DNA of 64,000 nucleotides, from NCBI RefSeq assembly GCF_054482525.1, contig NZ_JBTHVG010000003.1; one strand, 5' to 3'. The notes beneath the pieces are model-generated. The model saw only the letters and a list, made by a program, of their open reading frames with translations. It had not been told where the DNA came from and searched no databases. This document shows, in pieces, positions 9,261-64,000 of this stretch. The DNA is from a plasmid. Every line of letters starts with the position of its first letter. Within the stretch, counting starts at the first letter, position 1. The position numbers were made by a program, and so were the translations under genes.

Positions 9261-9638
9261 ATGTCATATCTTGAATATATCAATGAAGTAAAAGTGTCCG
9301 GGATAGTTATCAGTGCTGTGGAGAAAAAAATGACTGACCAGAGTATAGGTTTGTTAATAAAGCTCAAAAATAGGATGAAGACAGAAGTTGATGGTGAAAT
9401 CACTGAGAGAGAATTTTCAGTTCAAATCAAGGTGTCGCCTGAAATGTATTCAACCTGTTTCACTGGTATAAATCAGGGTGATGAGTTGATGGTCTCCGGT
9501 TATATTGTTGTCGATACTATTATGATTGAAGGGAGAGAACATCCTCTTGACTACATGAGAGTGGTAGCAACAAGTAAGTTGGCTCACATACCTAAACCTC
9601 TAAAAGGTTTTGGACAAAGTAGCTTTAATCAGATCTGA
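9261..9638 (+). CDS. Hypothetical protein, possible OB-fold ssDNA-binding-like
   Basis: 125 aa with GAGGAG RBS; beta-rich pattern loosely resembling SSB/PriB. Weak assignment. Confidence 0.4.
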   Translation: MSYLEYINEVKVSGIVISAVEKKMTDQSIGLLIKLKNRMKTEVDGEITEREFSVQIKVSPEMYSTCFTGINQGDELMVSGYIVVDTIMIEGREHPLDYMRVVATSKLAHIPKPLKGFGQSSFNQI

Positions 9639-24075: not shown

Positions 24076-24333
24076 ATGAGTAGAACCGTTTCACAAAGTG
24101 TCACAGAAGATTGTCTTTTTGATACCCGCACACAAGTCAGATTACAACTAAGTCGAAGCGTTCATAAAACGCTGGCATCTGCTAAAGAAATTTTACAGGG
24201 AAGGGGGGTTGATTCGGTCTCTATTGAAGATCTTGTGCGAGCCTGTCTTGAAGAGAACCAGCCAATTGATCTCGCCTCACTTTACCTTGAAAATCTCTTA
24301 AAACAGAAAGGTACCAGCATTTGCGATTTTTAG
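24076..24333 (+). CDS. Small hypothetical protein
   Basis: 85-aa ORF starting 8 nt after the previous stop. Confidence 0.35.
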   Translation: MSRTVSQSVTEDCLFDTRTQVRLQLSRSVHKTLASAKEILQGRGVDSVSIEDLVRACLEENQPIDLASLYLENLLKQKGTSICDF

Positions 24334-53979: not shown

Positions 53980-55305
53980 ATGAGCCGGAAACAGCAACGT
54001 CTGGTAATTTGGATGAACGGCATCAAAGTCGGGTACTGGGAAAAAAGCAAAGGGGTAGACAGCTTAGAATACCTTCCTGAATGGGTTGCTGACGAACAGG
54101 GAAGGCCGCTGTCATTGTCCCTTCCTTTTACTCCCGGGAACCAGGTCTGGCGTGGAAATGTGGTACGTGACTATTTTGATAATTTACTGCCGGACAGCGA
54201 AGGCATACGCAGACGTCTGGCAATGCGTTACAAGGCCGATAGCCTGGAGCCTTTTGATCTGCTGACGGAGCTGGGAAAAGACTGCGTGGGCGCGATACAG
54301 CTGCTTCATGACGGAGATGAACCCACTGATTTATATTCCGTGAAGTATCACCCGCTTACTGAATCAGAAATTGCGGCAACTTTGCGTAATACCACGGAGA
54401 CATTGCTACCGGGCAGGCCAGAAGATAACGACGACTTACGTTTATCTATTGCCGGTGCTCAGGAGAAAACAGCCCTACTGTGGCATGAAGAACGGTGGTG
54501 TATGCCGGAGGGTAATACACCAACGACGCATATATTCAAGCTACCGCTCGGACTTGTGGGGAACATGAAAGCCGACATGAGCTCGTCGGTTGAAAATGAA
54601 TGGCTCTGCTCGGTACTTCTCGGCCAGTACGGGCTCCCCGTGGCAAGAACGCAGATTGCTCACTTTGAAGATCAGAAAGCGCTGGTGGTAGAACGTTTTG
54701 ACCGAAAATGGTCAGGAGACGGACAATGGATCATTCGTTTACCCCAGGAGGATATGTGTCAGGCCCTGGGCGTTTCGCCATTACGAAAATATCAGGCGGA
54801 CGGCGGGCCAGGTATATCGGAAATTATGGAGGTTCTGAGTAATTCAGACCGTGCTGAGCGTGACAAAGCGCAGTTTTTTATGACGCAGATAATTTTCTGG
54901 ATGATGGCCGCAACAGATGGCCACGCTAAAAATTTCAGTATTTCTATTGGGCCACAGGGACGTTATCACCTTACACCAAACTATGATGTGTTGTCGGCAT
55001 GGCCGGTGATCGGTCATGGGAACAATCAGATATCCTGGCAGAAGTGCAAACTGGCGATGGCCGTACGTGGCAGTAGCAACTATTACCAGATATATCGAAT
55101 ACAACGACGCCACTGGATCAGGCATGGTGAGATAACCGGCCTGAGTAAACAGCAGACAGAGGCGATGATAGAGGAAATCATCGCCAGAACCCCGGGTGTC
55201 ATTGAACGTGTTAGCGGGCTTCTTCCGGACCAGTTCCCCCAGCAGCTTGCGGAAAGTATTTTTGATGGAATGAGGCAGCAATGCAGGCGCCTGGCTGAGA
55301 AATGA
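53980..55305 (+). CDS. hipA: HipA-family Ser/Thr kinase toxin
   Basis: 441 aa with HipA-like blocks SIAGAQEKTALLWHEERWCMP and GHAKNFSI. Confidence 0.85.
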   Translation: MSRKQQRLVIWMNGIKVGYWEKSKGVDSLEYLPEWVADEQGRPLSLSLPFTPGNQVWRGNVVRDYFDNLLPDSEGIRRRLAMRYKADSLEPFDLLTELGKDCVGAIQLLHDGDEPTDLYSVKYHPLTESEIAATLRNTTETLLPGRPEDNDDLRLSIAGAQEKTALLWHEERWCMPEGNTPTTHIFKLPLGLVGNMKADMSSSVENEWLCSVLLGQYGLPVARTQIAHFEDQKALVVERFDRKWSGDGQWIIRLPQEDMCQALGVSPLRKYQADGGPGISEIMEVLSNSDRAERDKAQFFMTQIIFWMMAATDGHAKNFSISIGPQGRYHLTPNYDVLSAWPVIGHGNNQISWQKCKLAMAVRGSSNYYQIYRIQRRHWIRHGEITGLSKQQTEAMIEEIIARTPGVIERVSGLLPDQFPQQLAESIFDGMRQQCRRLAEK

Positions 55306-55365
55306 CAGCCGCAATTTATAGTGTGCATGTTTTCAGAATAGCTGATGTAAGCGTGAGGATTCAGT

Positions 55366-55572
55366 ATGACTGAAGAACAAAAAAGAATAGAGCGGGCTAT
55401 TGAGTTGGCTTGTCGTTACGGCGGAACCGATGAAATGCATCATCTGCAATGGGTCGTGGATCAGATGGTAAGAGAACTTGCTGGAGAACGTTATGCACAG
55501 ATTGTAGCTGATGCCACCAGCGGAGAAGATGGGCCTGATACTTACAAATGGAGTGTTGGGATCGCGCCTTAA
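55366..55572 (+). CDS. Small hypothetical protein
   Basis: 68-aa ORF. Confidence 0.3.
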   Translation: MTEEQKRIERAIELACRYGGTDEMHHLQWVVDQMVRELAGERYAQIVADATSGEDGPDTYKWSVGIAP

Positions 55573-55673
55573 CAGCTGTCGGTCTGGGGGTGAAAACGTA
55601 TTCTTCATTCAGCGAATTCCCAGGCTTCACATTAAGACTAAAGCGGCGGCCGCAGTAACGTAAGAGAAAATAA

Positions 55674-56084
55674 ATGGCTATTTTAGCAATCATTGCAGTT
55701 ATCGCCCTGGGTGGGTACGCCTACGGATTTATTAAAACCCGTGAGCTGAGCGCTTTGCGTAAAGAAATGAAACTATACGTGGATCGCATGGAAGCGGCGG
55801 AGCTGGACTTACACGCAATCAGAAGTGTAGCGGAGCACCGGTTGCACGGTGCAGGTAAACAGTTTGCCGACCTTTACAGCCGTATCGACGGTGCAACTGT
55901 GACGCTGACACCCGAAGATCAGCTGTTACTGGCAACGATGCCATTTAATATTCAGGATGTAGAAGACATCGTAAACGAGCGCGGTCCAAAGACAATTAGC
56001 GGCCGTCCATTCTGGGAAGTTGAGCCAGGCCCGCATGATTATGAATATGGCCCGCAATATCCGTATTTCCCAGACCAGCGCTAG
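55674..56084 (+). CDS. Hypothetical protein with N-terminal TM helix
   Basis: MAILAIIAVIALGGYAYGFI; ends 12 nt before the HNH gene. Confidence 0.4.
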   Translation: MAILAIIAVIALGGYAYGFIKTRELSALRKEMKLYVDRMEAAELDLHAIRSVAEHRLHGAGKQFADLYSRIDGATVTLTPEDQLLLATMPFNIQDVEDIVNERGPKTISGRPFWEVEPGPHDYEYGPQYPYFPDQR

Positions 56085-56096
56085 GAAGAGATCAAG

Positions 56097-56912
56097 ATGA
56101 GAGAGCCAAGACCACGCCATACCTTGCAGGTCATTCGTGTACCTTCTCTGGAGGTTCAGGACCTGGGGCTGACCAGCTTTGATAGCTGGCTTGACGAGCA
56201 CGGGTATGACAAAACGAATGCCAGAAATAACCGTACCATCTGGGCGAGAGAAGGCGGATGGCATCTGAAACGTTGCAGAAATCTTGAAACTGGCACGGAC
56301 GATTTCTGGTTTATCGCTTTCGATGGTAAAGGCGGGAAGATTTACCCGCTGAAAACCCAAAGAGACTACCGGGCTGCATATCGTAAGCTGGAAGCAGAAG
56401 GTTATGCGCCTGCGGTCATCGAGCAAATGACCACAGGCGCAGCATATAACCTGGCCTATCCACGTTCCACCCTAAAACAAGCTGAGACGGCCACCAGCGA
56501 GCCAATTCGGAAACCTGACGTAGATATCCAGGGTGAGCACTGCGAGCGCGTAGTGACGCAACGTAGTGGCGTGGCACAGGGTAAATTCAAAGCTCTGCTC
56601 ATCGAGAATTTCGCAGGCCGTTGTGCGGTAACCGGTTGGGTTAATGGAGGTGTCCTGGATGCGGCACACATTGAACATGGAACCCGGTACAATCCGTCTA
56701 ATGGCATCCTGATGACTCCAACAATGCATGCGCTGTTTGATGCCGATCTTATGGGCATAGATCCGGCCACCCTGACCGTTCATTTTAAGCCAGGCATTGA
56801 GGTGGGCGAGCTGTTTGAAGGCCGTAAAATCACACCGCTGGTGTACGATCTGGACTTAGAGCGGCTGGCCGTACGCTGGGCAGAATACCAGGGCCTTGCT
56901 CAGGACCAATGA
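56097..56912 (+). CDS. HNH endonuclease with N-terminal extension
   Basis: HNH core CAVTGWVNGGVLDAAHIEHGTRYNPSNGILMTPTMHALFD; AGGAAGAG RBS. Confidence 0.75.
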   Translation: MREPRPRHTLQVIRVPSLEVQDLGLTSFDSWLDEHGYDKTNARNNRTIWAREGGWHLKRCRNLETGTDDFWFIAFDGKGGKIYPLKTQRDYRAAYRKLEAEGYAPAVIEQMTTGAAYNLAYPRSTLKQAETATSEPIRKPDVDIQGEHCERVVTQRSGVAQGKFKALLIENFAGRCAVTGWVNGGVLDAAHIEHGTRYNPSNGILMTPTMHALFDADLMGIDPATLTVHFKPGIEVGELFEGRKITPLVYDLDLERLAVRWAEYQGLAQDQ

Positions 56913-57165
56913 AGGGTGACAGCCAGGTTGTGCCTAAACCTGGCAGTAAAACCTGCATGCCACAAACCTTTAAATTCTGACTCAAGAGCCTGGCACAAGA
57001 TAAAAGCGAAATGAAAAGGTTAAAACCGGTGCACCAGACCTCTTAGGTTTAATACCTGAGCCAGTATACTGGCAGTCTCAGGTAAGTGGGTATCATACAC
57101 TTCAGAAATATCCACACCGAGATAACCGCAACAGTTAAAGAGCTAAAAAGGACGGTTTTAATTTT

Positions 57166-57591
57166 ATGAATAAAACAGCTTTAATTATGATTCTGGGAAT
57201 CCTCGGATGTGGTAAAGCATTTGCAGCCACTGAATTACAGCTCCAGCAAAAACGCGTTATGCATTTCTGTGCCAATGCCAGCCTTCCGTTGTTGATTGCC
57301 GGTACAACTTATGCGAATACGTCTGACAATGGACGACCAGAAAAAGAAAGAGTGGCAATCCTGAAAAATTCAGTTGCAAGCTCGACAGCTTATAAAATGG
57401 CATCTCCCGGAGTTCAGATGGCCATGATGAGCGTGGTGGAAGATATTGCCGATCCGAAAGAATTAGCTCTACATCAAAAAGAAGTTAGACGTCTTGGGGC
57501 TAGTTATCTTTCCGACAGCGGTGTTTCATGGGCTTCAAAAACTGTTTCACCATTTACAGCCTGGTGTAACTTTAACCGTTTAGAAAGTTAA
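57166..57591 (+). CDS. Secreted/periplasmic hypothetical protein
   Basis: Signal peptide MNKTALIMILGILGCGKAFAA. Confidence 0.45.
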   Translation: MNKTALIMILGILGCGKAFAATELQLQQKRVMHFCANASLPLLIAGTTYANTSDNGRPEKERVAILKNSVASSTAYKMASPGVQMAMMSVVEDIADPKELALHQKEVRRLGASYLSDSGVSWASKTVSPFTAWCNFNRLES

Positions 57592-58044
57592 GGCTGGCAA
57601 GGCGGTTCCTGTTCAGGAAAGTTACTTTCCGTGCGGGGACCGTAAGATACAGATAAAGCTTAAGGCCTTTGAATTTTTGGAAAGCATTTGAAAATTTCAT
57701 TGCGCTTGTCTGATATGAAACAGCCCTGCATTTCTGCAAAGGCTGAAAGAGTGTGTACGGACTTTGGAAGGAGTGATGATATACGCCTGAGCCATCCCAT
57801 CACCGCAGACAGGGTAATTAACCCTGACTAAAGCTTTCACCTATTCCGTCGCTCGCAAGCGGCTTTCGCACACTAACGAAGGTATGGCCTTTCGTCGGTG
57901 TTAAATTTTTCGGCTATTTGCAATCTGAGGTTGGATTGTAGATTTTAGTTAGAAATGGATCAAAGTCCGTTTTGTGCAAAACTTGGTTGACAACCCTCTT
58001 TTGGATGATGTGCCGTTTCGTGCAAAAGTTGGTTGGAGGCCAAG

Positions 58045-58287
58045 ATGGCAGAGTTCGTAGGTTCGGCTGCTTCGCAAGCTGATTTCATTTGGAAGAACGC
58101 GGAAGACCTGTGGGGGGGGGATTTCAAGCATACCGACTTCGGCAAGATCATTTTGCCGTTTACCCTGCTGCGTCGATTGGAGTGCGCACTGGAGTCTACA
58201 CGGGAAGCATCGCTCGATAGCCAACCAGCCACGATTGAGTTCTTAGAAGCAGAGTTCAGTGTTGATTTCGATGCGCTGCTATCTTGA
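58045..58287 (+). pseudogene. N-terminal fragment of an HsdM-like N6-adenine methyltransferase
   Basis: [36 protein letters not shown] matches the HsdM N-terminal domain pattern; the reading frame ends at a TGA after about 80 aa with no methyltransferase catalytic domain; GGAGG RBS; contains a G9 tract at 58112-58120. Confidence 0.45.
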
Positions 58288-58947
58288 CCGCCAATCAGAC
58301 CCGCATGGTTCAGGTTTGTGTATGAGAGTCCCCAAATGGCTGTAGTTCTAACCAAAGCCTTGATTGAAGCCGGCCGCACCGGAAATAGTGGGTACAGAAA
58401 AAAGCAGTTGCTTGCGCTGGGCGTAAGTAACCCGCCGAAAAGCGGCTGGATCGAACGACTGATCGGCACTGAGGTATCTGACGAGCAGTACGAACGCTTT
58501 CTGGGGCACAGCACGAGCAAGCTGCATATTCCGGTCGAAAATGAACACCTATTCCGGTTTAAAATGAACGCTGATTCCGGCTTGCGTGTACACCGATTCC
58601 GGACACCTCAGTGCACGTACTCTGATGTCAGATGAACCGTCCTGTTCCAACGTCTTGGATCCACAACTGCCGCGCTGCGCTTGGCTGCTGGCTTGTTCAG
58701 TGAGTCGAAAAGATGCCTCCCCTCAAAGCTCAGCTTCTGCTCGAAGAATCCCTGTCCGCATACTTTCCGGAATCACTGTTCAACTTCACCGGAATACGCA
58801 CAAGCAGGCTGAACAGATCCTACGCGGAGAGCAGCCAGCCAAGGGGCTTCAGTATGCAAAGCGAGCGAAGAAGCTCGCTTCTGAAAGAAAAGCCACAATT
58901 GATCTGGATAACGAGCACCTGTCTGAAATCGAAAAGTATCGGTAGCC

Positions 58948-60987
58948 CTAGACTTTTAGCCGCTGAAGATCTCTTAGATACCATTGGTGAAACTTGCTGA
59001 AGTCAGCCTTCTGTTTCTCTACCGTGCTTTTATAGATCGCATCACTGGTAACCGCACAAGCAGTCCAGCCAGCCTCATAGACGAAGCGAGTAGCTATCGG
59101 TGACTTCTTCGGGGTGCTATCCCAGCGGTTTTTGAGCCACCGCGCAAGCCCTTCATCAAGAGGGACAACCAGATTTAGCTGCTGTTTTGTGCGAGTGATA
59201 CCGACATAAAACAGCCGACGTTCCTCCTCGATTACCTCTTCGGTCGGAGGGGTGTTCATCGATGTGCGAACGCTGTAAACATCATCGGGTTTGCCGCCAG
59301 GAAATTCCTGCTCATTCAGCCCGACCAGTATTACGTTATCCCACTCCAGCCCCTTGGAACCATGCAGTGTGGAAAGGATGAAGGGATCGCAGTCAGTTGC
59401 AGCCTCGCCTGGATTCAAGATAAGGTTTAAAAACGTGCGGGAATCGATCTTACTGGAGACAAGTAGCTCCTCGATCCTCTTGACCCCTCGTTGCTGGTCG
59501 TTCGATCCAGTGCGAGTTACACCCTCAGAGCCAACACTATCAATGAAACCCTCCATACGCAGGCGTAGTAACACATCGATAGCAGGCGTTTCCTCTCCGT
59601 CTTTCTGGCAGATAGTGGCGAGCCTGCCCAGCCGATCTTTTTGGTTTTGTGCGCCCTCGAATAACTGGCCTAGAGCAGACCATAGGTCGGCGTGCGGAGC
59701 CATCAATCCACTGAGCGCCGCTTTGAATTGCCCTTTCTGCCAGCTAAAACCAGCCTCCTTCAGAAAGCCGTAAACAATCGCTTGTTTGTTGGGATGGTTT
59801 TCCAGTAGCCGCAGATCGCCGTACACAGACAGCAAGACGCCAACTACCAGTATCCCGATTTCAGTGCGGGTGTGTAATGCGCTTGAACCATTGAGGTAGC
59901 GATAAGGTAGCCCACACAGGCGTAAAGTAATTTCCGCCTCAGCAAGGTTCGCCTTAGTGCGGGACAATATGGCTTGTGTTCCACTGCTCACCGAGAGGTT
60001 TGATAGCACCTTGGATAGGCAGTTATCAAAGTGCAATCTGACCTCTGTTTTGGGGGTGCTAGGATGACTGACACAAAGCTTGGTCAGCTTTGTAGAGTTG
60101 CGCCGAATTACCGAGTTAGCCATCAAGGAAAGCTCATGGCCAAATCTGAACGTGCATGACAGTTGAAACACCTTCGTATTCGGGTAGTGCTTTTCAAACA
60201 GTCCGCCGATAAAGTCTGGTCGAGCACCACGCCACTCATAAATACACTGGTTAACATCACCAACAGCCATAACTGACGTATCCGACTTAGATAGCAAGCG
60301 GGTCATGTCATGCTGTATCAGGTTAACGTCCTGATATTCATCAACAATGATGTGCTTGAAGTGGGCACCAAGGCTGCTGTCATTACGCAACAGTGCGACA
60401 GCCTCAACCAAACAGTCATCAAAGGTTCGCAGACTGTTTTCCTCCAGCAGCTCACAATAGCGGCCATAGGCGCGAATAAACTCCCGTTTGATGTTGCTGA
60501 ACGTTGGATCATTGGCAGCATCAACAGGAGTTACGGCCGCCGCCCGGCAGCGAGCAATAAACAGCTCGAAGTTTTCAATTTCATTGGGGTCAATAAAATT
60601 CGCCTCATGGTCAAAGCCATAGCAGTAGGCTTGCTTTACCAGTTGCTCATAGCGGTAGTCGCTTGGAGTAATGAGGTCTTTCTTCTTGATTATCTGTTGG
60701 CGTTCTCCGTAACCAACAATCTTTAAGGCCAAGCTGTGGAACGTGCGGATTTCTGGAATCACGCTCGACATCAGTGCCGTCTTCAACTTCTCCGTGAAGC
60801 TCACCTGCGCCGACTTGTTGTACATCAGGATCAGAATGGAGCGAGGATCAGTTCCCGTCTTGACCAGCCGCTCAACGCGCTTTACAAGTATGGTTGTTTT
60901 CCCGCTACCAGGTACGGCTTTTACCAACGCATGTCCGGTGTCATGGCTGACAATACTTTTCTGCTCCCAAGTCAGTCTTTTTGTCAT
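58948..60987 (-). CDS. UvrD/PcrA-like SF1 DNA helicase (679 aa)
   Basis: Walker A AVPGSGKTT, motif II IIVDEYQDVN, motif III VGDVNQCIYEWRGARPDF, motif V ILSTLHGSKGLEWDNVIL, motif VI FYVGITRTKQQL; its ATG overlaps the stop of the upstream gene (ATGA). Confidence 0.85.
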   Translation of the reverse strand: MTKRLTWEQKSIVSHDTGHALVKAVPGSGKTTILVKRVERLVKTGTDPRSILILMYNKSAQVSFTEKLKTALMSSVIPEIRTFHSLALKIVGYGERQQIIKKKDLITPSDYRYEQLVKQAYCYGFDHEANFIDPNEIENFELFIARCRAAAVTPVDAANDPTFSNIKREFIRAYGRYCELLEENSLRTFDDCLVEAVALLRNDSSLGAHFKHIIVDEYQDVNLIQHDMTRLLSKSDTSVMAVGDVNQCIYEWRGARPDFIGGLFEKHYPNTKVFQLSCTFRFGHELSLMANSVIRRNSTKLTKLCVSHPSTPKTEVRLHFDNCLSKVLSNLSVSSGTQAILSRTKANLAEAEITLRLCGLPYRYLNGSSALHTRTEIGILVVGVLLSVYGDLRLLENHPNKQAIVYGFLKEAGFSWQKGQFKAALSGLMAPHADLWSALGQLFEGAQNQKDRLGRLATICQKDGEETPAIDVLLRLRMEGFIDSVGSEGVTRTGSNDQQRGVKRIEELLVSSKIDSRTFLNLILNPGEAATDCDPFILSTLHGSKGLEWDNVILVGLNEQEFPGGKPDDVYSVRTSMNTPPTEEVIEEERRLFYVGITRTKQQLNLVVPLDEGLARWLKNRWDSTPKKSPIATRFVYEAGWTACAVTSDAIYKSTVEKQKADFSKFHQWYLRDLQRLKV

Positions 60988-61970
60988 GCCTTAACCTTGT
61001 AATTGGCGCACTGACGGGCCTCGGTGTAGGGAACGATCTTTGCTTTACTGTGACATTGCAGATAGCCATCCTCCCATCGGCCTGCTTGCTCGCACATAAT
61101 GCAGTTGGGAAATAGTGAATGAGGATCGGCGTGACGGATAAAAGCTCGTAAGTTATCTGCCAGCTCAGCGGCCCCTAACGATCTAGGCCATGTGTTCACG
61201 TCAGAATTGATTGTTAAATCCACTTCAGCGAGCGGCATCGTTTGTTCGTTGAGTCGGCCGGAACCACTTAAACTCCAGACAGACATATCCACGTTACCTA
61301 CTGAGCAGACGCCGCTACAGGTGTCCACAGATTGAAACGGGGGAAGCCAGTTGAATACTCTCAGGATCTTCTCCTTGATCGAGTAGGCCCCGGTAAGCAA
61401 CATCTGAATATCAGAGGCAGATTGGACCTTAAACTCAAGAATCGGGATACCGGCTTCGATCTTGTCTTGAGAGCAGGGGTGTGTGACACAAATCTCTACG
61501 TAGCAACGCCTTTCGCCAGTCGTATCATACAACATCACGTCTGGTCGCAGCCCTGTGACCTTATCGTGTTTTTCCAGCTCTGCCTGATCGAAAAATTGAG
61601 TCAAGTTGTAGCGTGCAGGCACGGATTTTACGCACTGACGTGCTTCGTCTCTAACTAAGGCTAAATGAGGACCATTACAGGCAACCCGGCGCTCCAGCTC
61701 AAGGCTAATAGGCATTTCACGGCTGAGAGCTTGTTGGTAGCGATAGAAGAATGCTTCTTTGCCGCACTTGTGAAGATAGGTTTCAAGGGCACAGCATTCT
61801 TCCGAATGGCGAAAGTGCTTAGCGTTGAACTCGCCCATTACCGGGGTCAGGGGGCTCTTACAACCTGGGCAGGTGTAAGTATGTGAGCGCAGGGCAGCGC
61901 CAATGTGCGTGAGGGTGCCCTCGTCGTCTAGCGCGTAAGCGTATTGTATTGAGCTGGATTGAGTTGTCAT
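60984..61970 (-). CDS. CoiA-like zinc-finger/nuclease-family protein, helicase partner
   Basis: N-terminal YTCPGCKSPLTPVMGEFNAKHFRH signature; further Cys/His clusters; RPDVML...E-x-C patch suggestive of a nuclease core; start set at the ATG at 61970 (ORF-track TTG at 61988). Confidence 0.55.
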   Translation of the reverse strand: MTTQSSSIQYAYALDDEGTLTHIGAALRSHTYTCPGCKSPLTPVMGEFNAKHFRHSEECCALETYLHKCGKEAFFYRYQQALSREMPISLELERRVACNGPHLALVRDEARQCVKSVPARYNLTQFFDQAELEKHDKVTGLRPDVMLYDTTGERRCYVEICVTHPCSQDKIEAGIPILEFKVQSASDIQMLLTGAYSIKEKILRVFNWLPPFQSVDTCSGVCSVGNVDMSVWSLSGSGRLNEQTMPLAEVDLTINSDVNTWPRSLGAAELADNLRAFIRHADPHSLFPNCIMCEQAGRWEDGYLQCHSKAKIVPYTEARQCANYKVKA

Positions 61971-62600
61971 GACTGCGTAGCCTCCCAAAAAAATCCAGCT
62001 AAGAACAGACCTTACGACAGGGAAATGGTAAGTAGTGCTTCTTGAAGCAGTCGAGTGTACAGCGGCTCAGTGAAAAAGCTAATCGCCCGCTCAACAACCT
62101 AGTGATACTGGTGCAGATTCGACAATGAGTTAATGCCCGGAGAGCATCTGCAAGACTTCTAGCTGGAAGGCATTCCAACCAGCCCTCGCTTCTGAAAAGC
62201 CGTCAGGAAACGGTAAAATCCAACCAAGTGAGCAACTTCACTTGATCAAAGATCTAAGGCTAGAATGATGGAATTACAACCTTAGTTTGCAAATAGCCAA
62301 TTTTTCAAACTTTGCTTACTTTGTCAAGGAAGGTGACCGCAGTAGCAGGCACAACTACTTTAATCTGTATGAATAATAAGGTAGAACCGGCCAGTGAATG
62401 AATGCTTACCCTGAAATCAGGCGGACAACCTTCAGGAATATTGATAGCAAGACTGAATCTCTCGCTGCGGCGATAAACATTTCGCCATAACCCTGAACGA
62501 GAGTGGTTCATCCATCATATACAGGAGCGTTACATGCGCAAATTTAAGTACATAATCTGTCACCAGTCCTGACCAAGGTCCTTTCGCCCGGGATGTTAGG

Positions 62601-62939
62601 TTGAATTGCTACGGGCGATGTGTTGTCACCGGCGTAAGGTCCCCCTGGCGTACTGAGGCCGCGCACTTAACGCCACGTCATGAAGAAGGCATTCCCGACG
62701 TAACGAACGGAATTTTACTTCGCCGTGATATCCATACACTGTTCGACAATGACCATTGCGCCATAAACCCTGACACTATGAAAATTTACTTCAGCCGGGA
62801 GGCCCGGGAGTTGGATGATGATCTCCTGAAATGGCATGGGAATGAGATAGAGACGACACGCATGCAGGTTCCGGTTAACATCGAAAACCTTCGGATACGA
62901 TGGCAAAAATTTAAGGCTAAGGATCGTCAGCGTAAATAA
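62601..62939 (+). CDS. Short HNH-domain protein, possibly truncated
   Basis: CVVTGVRSPWRTEAAHLTPRHEEGIPDVTNGILLRRDIHTLFDND aligns to the HNH core of the 56097..56912 protein; TTG start, only 112 aa. Confidence 0.45.
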   Translation: MNCYGRCVVTGVRSPWRTEAAHLTPRHEEGIPDVTNGILLRRDIHTLFDNDHCAINPDTMKIYFSREARELDDDLLKWHGNEIETTRMQVPVNIENLRIRWQKFKAKDRQRK

Positions 62940-63000
62940 AGCCATAAGCTGAACCACGGCGAGGATTAGTCTTGTTCACTAAATGACAGCGAGAGATTAA

Positions 63001-63204
63001 ATGCAAACCCAAAAAGAAATTACAGTTGGCCAGATCTGGGAAGAAGTGGATCCAAGACTGATCCGGAAAGTGCGGGTTGTTGAGGTGGCCTCGTTAGAAG
63101 GGCCCAAAGGCATCCTTATCGAAAACGTGGAGTCTGGTCGTAAGAACTGGGCGTCGTCATCCCGCTTTAATGGAAAGCGTGGAGGGTATCGTCTTATTTC
63201 CTGA
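63001..63204 (+). CDS. Small hypothetical protein
   Basis: 67-aa ORF. Confidence 0.3.
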   Translation: MQTQKEITVGQIWEEVDPRLIRKVRVVEVASLEGPKGILIENVESGRKNWASSSRFNGKRGGYRLIS

Positions 63205-63545
63205 CGGTTTTGCCAATATGGGAAACTGAAGAGGTTGAAACCATCCCGGTGAGGGAGCATATCTGGTAAAGAAGAGTCTTTAAAAAGGTTTTACGCGACC
63301 TGGGATAATAAACGGGAAAACGATACCCAAAAAAAGAATACAGCGATGATAACGATAAGGAATGGTAAGGGCTTCAATATTTTGAGAAATGCCCTGGCTT
63401 CCTTTGCATCTGCATTTCTAATCAAACTGTCCACATAGGGATCACAGCTCTTAGGTTCTGAATTTTTCATATGTTCTGTACCTGAAATTGATTCCGTATG
63501 AGAAAAGGCCACCGAAGTGGCCTCTATCAAAACTGGTGGCAAAAG

Positions 63546-63950
63546 TTAGATCAGGAAATCATCAAGACTTTTACCGGCTGCAATTTGTTCTGCCAGAGCT
63601 TTGGGGGTACGGCCCTGTCCAGTCCACGTTTTTGTTTCGCCATTTTCATCAGTAAATGAGTATTTGGCCGGGCGTGGTCCACGGCTTTTCTTGGTAGCCG
63701 TAGATTTGGCCTGGAATGAGCCAAGCAGCTCTTCCGGGTTGATACCATCTTCTTCCATTAACTTACGCAGGGCGTCAAGTTTCTCCTGACGAGCTTGCAG
63801 TTCGGCAGCTTTGGATGATTCTTCCTGACGACGCTCATCAACAATGACATTAAGCTTTTCGAGGATTTCCTCAAGTACTTCTAAAGGCAGCTCGCGGCCC
63901 TGGGCGCGAAGAGTACGAATATTGTTTAACGATTTGAGTGCTTCAGACAT
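63546..63950 (-). CDS. hns: H-NS family nucleoid-associated protein
   Basis: [20 protein letters not shown] at the N-terminus and the DNA-binding block [10 protein letters not shown] near the C-terminus; 134 aa. Confidence 0.9.
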
Positions 63951-64000
63951 ACGACCCCACTTTCTAATTCTTTGATAAGGATTTACTTAATCATAATACA

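What the first reader, a model, noticed from the sequence alone, without database searches (positions are those of the whole stretch)
62601..62939. Short HNH paralog of the 56097..56912 nuclease
Only the HNH core is present (112 aa, TTG start), resembling the C-terminal half of the larger HNH protein 6 kb upstream; it is a likely truncated duplicate.
Basis: seen in the sequence. Interest (0 to 1): 0.3.

Follow-up and report, generated by a model that had tools for sequence, protein, structure and literature searches.

The report
Deletion remnant of a plasmid nuclease gene
The short HNH reading frame is the leftover 3' end of a separate 285-residue nuclease gene of IncHI2 resistance plasmids, beheaded by a 776-base deletion; it is not a copy of the neighbouring HNH gene and is an ordinary gene relic.

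Summary
62601..62939 is an open 112-codon frame with a full Pfam HNH_2 match (E 3e-13). It resembles the C-terminal part of the 271-aa HNH protein at 56097..56912 (32% identity, E 1e-12).

The interpretation as a truncated duplicate of that gene does not hold. The window is IncHI2 plasmid backbone. A near-identical plasmid (pYLMB15a) carries both the 271-aa gene and, at this locus, an intact operon of a 102-aa gene and a 285-aa HNH gene.

The window lacks exactly 776 bp of that operon. The loss lies between two copies of the 12-bp repeat TCTGTCACCAGT, and one copy remains at 62556..62567. What is left is:
- codons 1-11 of the 102-aa gene, now a 12-codon mini-ORF (62534..62572);
- codons 159-285 of the HNH gene (62556..62939), out of frame with the mini-ORF.

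The "TTG start" is the internal Leu174 codon. No remnant of the missing N-terminal part exists anywhere in the window.

268 of 969 plasmid records with this locus carry the same junction. The 271-aa protein is the most distant of 169 relatives compared.

The parent protein models as a PUA-like barrel plus HNH, closest to the modification-dependent restriction enzymes VcaM4I and TagI. The relic is most likely non-functional. Interest is low.

The parts
62601..62939 (+). The reported 112-codon ORF. It equals codons 174-285 plus the stop of the ancestral 285-aa HNH gene. The TTG 'start' is the internal Leu174 codon.
62556..62939 (+). Full extent of the retained 3' part of the 285-aa HNH gene (codons 159-285 plus stop). 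Codons 159-173 cannot be translated because an in-frame TAA (62553..62555) lies just upstream and no start codon occurs before 62601.
   Evidence: tblastn gives 100% identity for residues 159-285; codon list
62556..62567 (+). Deletion junction: the single remaining copy of the 12-bp direct repeat TCTGTCACCAGT. In the intact allele the two copies lie 776 bp apart (L005 8557..8568 and 9333..9344).
62534..62572 (+). Mini-ORF MRKFKYIICHQS*. It consists of the first 11 codons of the upstream 102-aa gene (WP_001224686.1 in L004, WP_001224687.1 in L005), fused out of frame to HNH sequence and stopping at TGA 62570..62572.
62523..62527 (+). AGGAG Shine-Dalgarno-like sequence 6 nt before the ATG at 62534. 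It serves the mini-ORF, not the HNH remnant.
   Evidence: sequence reading
62299..62533 (+). Retained upstream non-coding region of the former 102-aa/HNH operon, conserved in plasmids with the intact allele. It holds the likely operon promoter, supported only by consensus-like sites.
56097..56912 (+). The 271-aa HNH_2 protein used for comparison (WP_001572439.1). It is a distant family relative, not the parent of the short ORF.

Best explanation
The 112-codon ORF is a 5'-truncated relic of a distinct IncHI2 backbone gene. In the ancestral state a small zinc-finger-like 102-aa gene is followed 15 bp later by a 285-aa gene. That gene encodes an N-terminal PUA-like beta-barrel, a linker and a C-terminal HNH_2 nuclease domain. 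This architecture is that of modification-dependent (type IV) restriction endonucleases such as VcaM4I and TagI.

In the lineage of this window, illegitimate recombination or replication slippage between two copies of TCTGTCACCAGT removed 776 bp. One copy lay in codons 8-12 of the 102-aa gene and the other in codons 159-162 of the HNH gene. The deletion removed most of the 102-aa gene and the HNH gene's ribosome-binding site, start codon, reader domain and linker.

The retained operon signals now drive only a 12-codon mini-ORF in another frame. The HNH core that remains has no native start: the first possible start is an internal Leu TTG with no convincing Shine-Dalgarno sequence. It also lacks three conserved residues of the helix that precedes the catalytic motif. 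It is therefore most likely an untranslated or inactive relic that gene callers report because the frame stays open and carries the HNH_2 signature.

Shown: the deletion, its junction, the parent gene, and the frequency of the allele. Inferred: the slippage mechanism, the lack of expression, and the restriction function of the parent.
For: Plasmid identity and the parent gene:
- The window is IncHI2 backbone.
- L005 (pYLMB15a) is 99.7% identical to window 54000..62567 and 99.8% identical to 62556..64000, with 776 extra bases in between. Those bases complete a 102-aa and a 285-aa gene.
- The same is true of L004.

The deletion:
- The two BLAST segments overlap by 12 bp, which is the repeat TCTGTCACCAGT.
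- The window retains residues 159-285 of the 285-aa protein at 100% identity and residues 1-11 of the 102-aa protein. The deleted DNA is nowhere else in the window.
- There is no ATG, GTG or TTG between the in-frame TAA and 62601.
- The junction is present in 268 of 969 plasmid records. The intact 1251-bp operon is present in 554 of 979 records.

Full length is the ancestral state:
- Full-length homologues of 264-332 aa at 41-75% identity share the N-terminal domain.
- Among the best 150 representatives, the median length is 289 aa with the HNH at the C-terminus, and only 7 of 148 are 150 aa or shorter.
- Q165, F168 and V172 are nearly invariant in the family and lie upstream of the TTG.

Parent architecture:
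- The AF2 model has pLDDT 71, with a beta-barrel at 15-137 and HNH at 165-285.
- Foldseek gives VcaM4I E 9.6e-5 and TagI E 1e-3.
- The only PDB sequence hit is VcaM4I, E 2.5e-4.
- PUA-HNH fusions are established modification-dependent restriction enzymes (PMC6765204, PMC7897488).
Against: - The frame is open for 112 codons and keeps the whole Pfam HNH_2 region, including the catalytic His22, Asn36 and His45. Low-level translation from TTG, or re-initiation after the mini-ORF that ends 28 nt upstream, cannot be excluded from sequence alone.
- The allele is carried by 268 plasmids, so it is at least not strongly deleterious.
- A few short homologues of 116-137 aa exist elsewhere and start at the same domain boundary.
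No Pfam PUA, EVE or SRA family is matched by any family member.
Confidence: 0.9

Rival explanations
1. One reading: the short ORF is a truncated duplicate of the 271-aa HNH gene at 56097..56912, made by duplication within the plasmid.
For: Both carry HNH_2, and they align at 32% identity, E 1e-12, including the region after the catalytic motif. They lie 6 kb apart on the same strand.
Against: - No DNA similarity.
- The 271-aa protein ranks last of 169 relatives of the short ORF, and the short ORF ranks 106th among relatives of the 271-aa C-terminus.
- The orthologous intact gene at the same locus in sister plasmids is a different 285-aa protein whose N-terminal 150 residues show no similarity to the 271-aa protein.
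- No N-terminal remnants of either protein lie upstream.
Confidence: 0.02
2. The ORF is a genuine, functional free-standing small HNH nuclease gene, as its RefSeq annotation as an ordinary CDS implies.
For: - It has an open frame, a complete Pfam domain match and catalytic residues.
- It is retained unchanged in 268 plasmids.
- Short homologues of 116-137 aa exist, for example in Erwinia.
- The operon promoter region upstream is retained.
Against: - The start is an internal Leu codon of the intact gene, and no convincing SD precedes it.
- The conserved Q165, F168 and V172 are cut off.
- The deletion alleles are about 100% identical, so their number reflects recent clonal spread, not selection.
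- The short homologues align to the C-termini of full-length relatives such as P0011 (275 aa). The Erwinia-type one sits beside a truncated PtuA-like ATPase gene, so it also looks like a relic.
- Several other differently truncated versions of the same gene are in the databases: P0002-P0004 and the R478 202-aa form.
Confidence: 0.07
3. The polarity is the reverse: the window shows the original state and the 776 bp in other plasmids is an insertion.
For: A pair of 12-bp direct repeats flanks the extra segment, superficially like a target-site duplication.
Against: - The segment carries no transposase or terminal inverted repeats. It consists of the 3' 90% of one gene and the 5' 55% of the next, with both frames continuous across both boundaries.
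- Full-length 264-332-aa homologues with the same N-terminal domain occur in other bacteria at 41-75% identity.
Confidence: 0.01

Closest known systems
IncHI2 backbone gene WP_000784387.1 (285 aa, 'HNH endonuclease signature motif containing protein'), intact in pYLMB15a, pC16_001 and 554 PLSDB records
   Same: Same locus and same flanks. The retained 127 codons are 100% identical.
   Different: The window lacks codons 1-158, the RBS and most of the upstream 102-aa gene, owing to a 776-bp deletion.
VcaM4I (EVE-HNH) and TagI (SRA-HNH) modification-dependent restriction endonucleases (PDB 6yex, 6ghs; PMC7897488, PMC6765204)
   Same: The parent 285-aa protein has the same domain order (beta-barrel reader, linker, HNH_2-type nuclease). 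These two enzymes are its best structural and only PDB sequence matches.
   Different: - Sequence identity is only 12-18%.
- No Pfam EVE or SRA match.
- The reader domain is modelled at medium confidence, and specificity is unknown.
- The window's relic has no reader domain at all.
The 271-aa HNH_2 protein of the same plasmid (56097..56912, WP_001572439.1)
   Same: HNH_2 domain plus a C-terminal helix; 31-32% identity over about 110-130 residues.
   Different: - The N-terminal 150 residues are unrelated.
- It has its own set of full-length orthologues.
- It is not the closest relative.
Other truncated alleles of the same gene, such as the R478 202-aa form WP_000289256.1 and database fragments P0002-P0004
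   Same: They are 5'-truncated or disrupted versions of the same IncHI2 HNH gene.
   Different: The breakpoints and causes differ (mer transposon, IS26/IS1, frameshift). The window's allele is a clean microhomology deletion.

Membership tests
Pfam HNH_2 (PF13391) nuclease domain | Profile match above the gathering score | tested here: met
   49.8 bits against a cut-off of 21, E 3.1e-13, profile positions 1-66 of 66.
Pfam HNH_2 (PF13391) nuclease domain | Catalytic His / Asn / His of the beta-beta-alpha-metal motif | tested here: met
   His22, Asn36 and His45 of the ORF fall in family columns H195 (90% or more), N209 and H218 (invariant).
Intact member of the 285-aa IncHI2 HNH family | N-terminal beta-barrel domain (residues about 15-137) and the conserved Q165/F168/V172 helix | tested here: not met
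   Codons 1-158 are deleted. Codons 159-173 are present but lie behind an in-frame stop with no start codon.
PUA-superfamily-HNH modification-dependent restriction endonucleases (VcaM4I/TagI type) | Modified-base reader domain of the PUA superfamily fused N-terminally to HNH | tested here: not met
PUA-superfamily-HNH modification-dependent restriction endonucleases (VcaM4I/TagI type) | Cleavage dependent on 5mC, 5hmC or another modification | not testable with these tools
   Needs biochemistry on the intact 285-aa protein.
Recent duplicate (paralog copy) of 56097..56912 | The two are each other's closest relatives, with residual DNA similarity | tested here: not met
   32% protein identity, no blastn hit, rank 169 of 169.
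Gene remnant / pseudogene | An intact orthologue at the same locus in close relatives, and a defined lesion removing the start and 5' coding sequence | tested here: met
   Intact allele in L005, L004 and 554 records. The lesion is a 776-bp deletion between 12-bp repeats.
Gene remnant / pseudogene | No expression of a product | not testable with these tools
   The only evidence is the absence of a native start and a weak SD.

The most novel reading that the evidence does not exclude
The relic is not silent. After translation of the retained 12-codon mini-ORF, ribosomes re-initiate at TTG 62601 and make a reader-less HNH core with some activity of its own. Alternatively, the loss is adaptive. 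Different IncHI2 lineages have lost one or the other of two HNH nuclease genes: the 285-aa gene here and in R478, and the 271-aa gene in pC16_001. This could reflect selection to resolve a conflict between modification-dependent restriction and host or plasmid DNA methylation.
Probability: 0.07. Interest if true: 0.35.

Novelty: already known. Interest (0 to 1): 0.1.

Why it matters
It matters little in itself. It corrects an annotation: RefSeq lists the relic as an ordinary CDS (WP_223231361.1) rather than a pseudogene. It also provides a simple structural marker, the 776-bp deletion junction, for one E. coli/Salmonella sublineage of IncHI2 resistance plasmids (268 of 969 records). The intact parent gene is an uncharacterised candidate modification-dependent restriction enzyme on a major multidrug-resistance plasmid family. 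It could be worth testing, but it is not present in this window.

Tried and rejected
- **N-terminal remnants.** tblastn of the 271-aa, 285-aa and 102-aa proteins against the whole window, all frames, E up to 10, found nothing beyond the retained parts. Three-frame translation of 61901..62939 showed none either.
- **DNA similarity.** Word-7 blastn between the two HNH loci found none.
- **NCBIfam and PADLOC scans.** These gave only weak generic HNH hits. PT-DNA_restrict scored 20 bits against a cut-off of 180, and PADLOC 'HNH' models gave E 2e-3 to 2e-8. They allow no assignment to a defined system.
- **Pfam scan of all 21 family members for a reader domain.** No PUA, EVE, SRA, ASCH or YTH match.
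- **AF2 model of the 271-aa protein.** It was too poor to use (pLDDT 48), so I could not compare the two N-terminal domains by fold.
- **Literature search for this gene in IncHI2.** It gave only incidental mentions of 'HNH endonuclease' near mcr-1.
- **A weak tblastn hit of the ORF at 24160..24258** (E 0.34). No HNH ORF is there.

Full report

Yes. The ORF 62601..62939 (+, TTG, 112 aa) is in the mechanical ORF list. RefSeq annotates exactly this frame on identical plasmids as WP_223231361.1, 'HNH endonuclease signature motif containing protein'. It matches Pfam HNH_2 (PF13391) across the whole profile, E 3.1e-13, 49.8 bits against a cut-off of 21. The 271-aa ORF at 56097..56912 matches the same family at residues 176-222.

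BLASTP aligns the short protein (2-106) with residues 171-266 of the long one at 32% identity, E 1e-12. With tblastn the similarity continues nine codons upstream of the TTG, to 62574. That was the first hint that the annotated start is not the real beginning of the homologous region.

**2. Where the window comes from**

Megablast of 61900..63300 finds 1115 plasmid records, mostly conjugative plasmids of Escherichia, Salmonella and Enterobacter. Several of them match at 100%. The annotated context in pM160133_p1 is typed IncHI2A/MOBH and reads as follows:
- HipA toxin;
- the 271-aa HNH gene;
- a UvrD-like helicase and its partner;
- the short HNH ORF;
- a 67-aa ORF;
- an H-NS-family gene.

The window is therefore IncHI2 backbone.

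**3. The decisive result: an intact parent gene at the same locus**

A 'spread' listing of the matches showed that many plasmids match 62299..63000 in two pieces spanning about 776 extra bases. In pC16_001 (L004) the extra DNA completes two genes:
- a 102-aa gene (WP_001224686.1, with two CxxCxGxG-like motifs);
- 15 bp later, a 285-aa HNH gene (WP_000784387.1).

pYLMB15a (L005) is the clearest comparison. It is 99.7% identical to window 54000..62567 and 99.8% identical to 62556..64000. It contains the same 271-aa HNH gene and helicase module, and it also has the intact 102-aa and 285-aa genes.

The two alignment blocks overlap by 12 bases. Reading the sequence shows TCTGTCACCAGT at L005 8557..8568, inside codons 8-12 of the 102-aa gene. 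It occurs again at 9333..9344, in codons 159-162 of the HNH gene, exactly 776 bp apart. The window has one copy, at 62556..62567. This is the signature of a microhomology-mediated deletion; the slippage or illegitimate-recombination mechanism itself is inferred.

The reverse polarity, an insertion in the other plasmids, is not credible for two reasons:
- The segment is made of the 3' 90% of one gene and the 5' 55% of the next, with both frames continuous across both boundaries.
- Full-length homologues of 264-332 aa with the same N-terminal domain occur elsewhere at 41-75% identity.

**4. What is left in the window**

- tblastn shows residues 159-285 of the 285-aa protein at 62556..62936 (100% identity) and residues 1-11 of the 102-aa protein at 62534..62566. 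The deleted 776 bp and the missing protein parts occur nowhere else in the window.
- The ATG at 62534 keeps its AGGAG box (62523..62527). It now reads MRKFKYIICHQS and stops at TGA 62570..62572.
- The HNH frame is different (67 nt offset). It has an in-frame TAA at 62553..62555, contributed by the upstream gene's sequence. The codons from there to 62600 (TCT GTC ACC AGT CCT GAC CAA GGT CCT TTC GCC CGG GAT GTT AGG) include no ATG, GTG or TTG.
- The 'TTG start' at 62601 is therefore simply Leu174 of the intact protein. The bases before it (GGGATGTTAGG) offer no well-spaced Shine-Dalgarno sequence; this is my reading of the sequence.
- In the family alignment, Q165, F168 and V172 are at least 90% conserved and lie upstream of Leu174. 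Even a product started at the TTG would lack part of the conserved helix that precedes the catalytic motif.
- The catalytic residues themselves are retained: H195, N209 and H218 in family numbering, which are His22, Asn36 and His45 of the ORF.

**5. Not a duplicate of 56097..56912**

- There is no DNA similarity between the loci.
- The full-length 285-aa and 271-aa proteins share only the C-terminal 130 residues (31% identity). Their N-terminal halves show nothing in common.
- An exhaustive phmmer search of 1.84 billion representatives found 3756 relatives of the retained region, 100 of them at E<=1e-10, with identities up to 67%.
- The 271-aa protein was added to a set of 172 proteins made up of the best 150 of these plus other proteins fetched. 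It ranked 169th of the 169 that hit the short ORF. The short ORF ranked 106th among hits to the 271-aa C-terminus.
- The 271-aa protein has its own orthologue series at 77-84% identity.

The two are distant members of one large domain family that happen to sit on the same plasmid.

**6. How common the allele is, and other lesions**

A 90-bp query across the junction is covered by at least 80% in 268 of 969 plasmid records. All sampled carriers are E. coli or Salmonella. In the other records the two halves match separately. The intact 1251-bp operon is present in 554 of 979 records.

Other lineages carry different lesions:
- R478, the IncHI2 prototype, has a 202-aa 5'-truncated form abutting the mer operon.
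- pGENC174 has IS26 immediately upstream of the gene.
- The protein databases hold further fragments of 76-149 aa with unrelated N-termini.

Conversely, in pC16_001 the 271-aa gene is cut at window position 56521 by the mer module, while the 285-aa gene is intact. Both genes border a variable region and are evidently dispensable.

**7. What the parent gene probably does**

Relatives of the retained region have a median length of 289 aa, with the HNH domain at the C-terminus. Only 7 of 148 are 150 aa or shorter.

An AlphaFold2 model of the 285-aa protein was built from a 21-sequence alignment. It has mean pLDDT 71, about 75-84 in the structured parts. It shows a beta-barrel at residues 15-137, a disordered linker at 139-164, and the HNH domain at 165-285.

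| Method | Result |
|---|---|
| Foldseek vs PDB | VcaM4I E 9.6e-5; TagI E 1e-3; nothing else significant |
| Profile search of PDB sequences | VcaM4I only, E 2.5e-4 |

Fusions of a PUA-superfamily reader with an HNH domain are established modification-dependent restriction endonucleases (PMC6765204, PMC7897488). I therefore infer that the intact gene encodes such an enzyme.

Three caveats apply. No Pfam reader family is matched by any member. The model is of medium confidence. The specificity is unknown.

The window's relic has lost the reader domain entirely. It cannot be filed in that family.

**8. Rival readings**

A functional free-standing mini-HNH cannot be excluded from sequence alone. 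The frame is open, the core is complete, the mini-ORF stop lies 28 nt upstream, and 268 plasmids carry the allele.

Several points argue against it:
- The carriers are essentially identical, so their number reflects clonal spread rather than selection.
- The start is an internal codon.
- The short homologues in other genomes (116-137 aa) align to the C-termini of full-length relatives such as P0011. In the one context recovered, the short homologue sits next to a truncated PtuA-like ATPase gene. These also look like relics.

I give this rival about 7%, the duplicate hypothesis about 2% and the reverse polarity about 1%.

**9. Verdict**

The feature is an ordinary gene remnant, already present in public annotation though not flagged as a pseudogene. 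Interest is low. Its only practical value is as a lineage marker and as a pointer to an untested candidate type IV restriction gene on IncHI2 plasmids.

Noticed in passing
window 57912..62298 (genes 58948..60987 - and 60984..61988 -): This 4.4-kb segment is absent from pC16_001-type IncHI2 plasmids, where window 57911 joins directly to 62299. It carries two genes whose ends overlap by 4 bp. One is a 679-aa UvrD-like helicase with GajB-like PADLOC hits (E 1.5e-51). The other is a 334-aa (PGAP: 284-aa) protein with a CoiA_N-type zinc-finger match (E 2.4e-5, below the gathering score). It could be a two-gene nuclease-helicase defence-like module; no defined PADLOC system matched the partner.
   Followed up: partly
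window 56097..56912, breakpoint at 56521: The 271-aa HNH gene is itself truncated in pC16_001-type plasmids: the mer module abuts window position 56521, leaving only the 3' 392 bp. Truncated protein forms of 154-214 aa are also in the databases. Different IncHI2 lineages have thus lost one or the other of the two HNH genes, while pYLMB15a keeps both.
   Followed up: partly
window 62601..62939: RefSeq/PGAP annotates the relic as a normal CDS (WP_223231361.1) rather than as a pseudogene or fragment of WP_000784387.1.
   Followed up: yes
L002 694..2098 (Logan contig SRR6219983_766; protein also named for Erwinia tasmaniensis): A 135-aa homologue (51% identity) starts at the same domain boundary (MTRPDQ...). 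It lies 360 bp downstream of a 211-aa ORF that matches only the C-terminal part (positions 281-480 of a 482-position PADLOC PDC-M01A model; it also matches PtuA-like models). This looks like another decayed locus.
   Followed up: partly
window 53980..55305 (+) and 63546..63950 (-): A HipA-family toxin gene, with an HTH antitoxin gene annotated just upstream in the reference plasmid, and an H-NS-family gene flank the region. Both are annotated backbone genes of the reference IncHI2 plasmid.
   Followed up: no
L001 17958..19385 (outside the window, about 7 kb beyond its 3' end): A DNA cytosine methyltransferase gene lies on the same plasmid backbone. If the HNH proteins are 5mC-dependent nucleases, this could create an epigenetic conflict of the kind described in the abstract of PMC8989522. 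I did not examine it.
   Followed up: no
window 63001..63204 (+): A 67-aa ORF (WP_001194555.1) lies 61 bp downstream of the relic on the same strand. It has no Pfam match and is possibly the last gene of the former operon.
   Followed up: no
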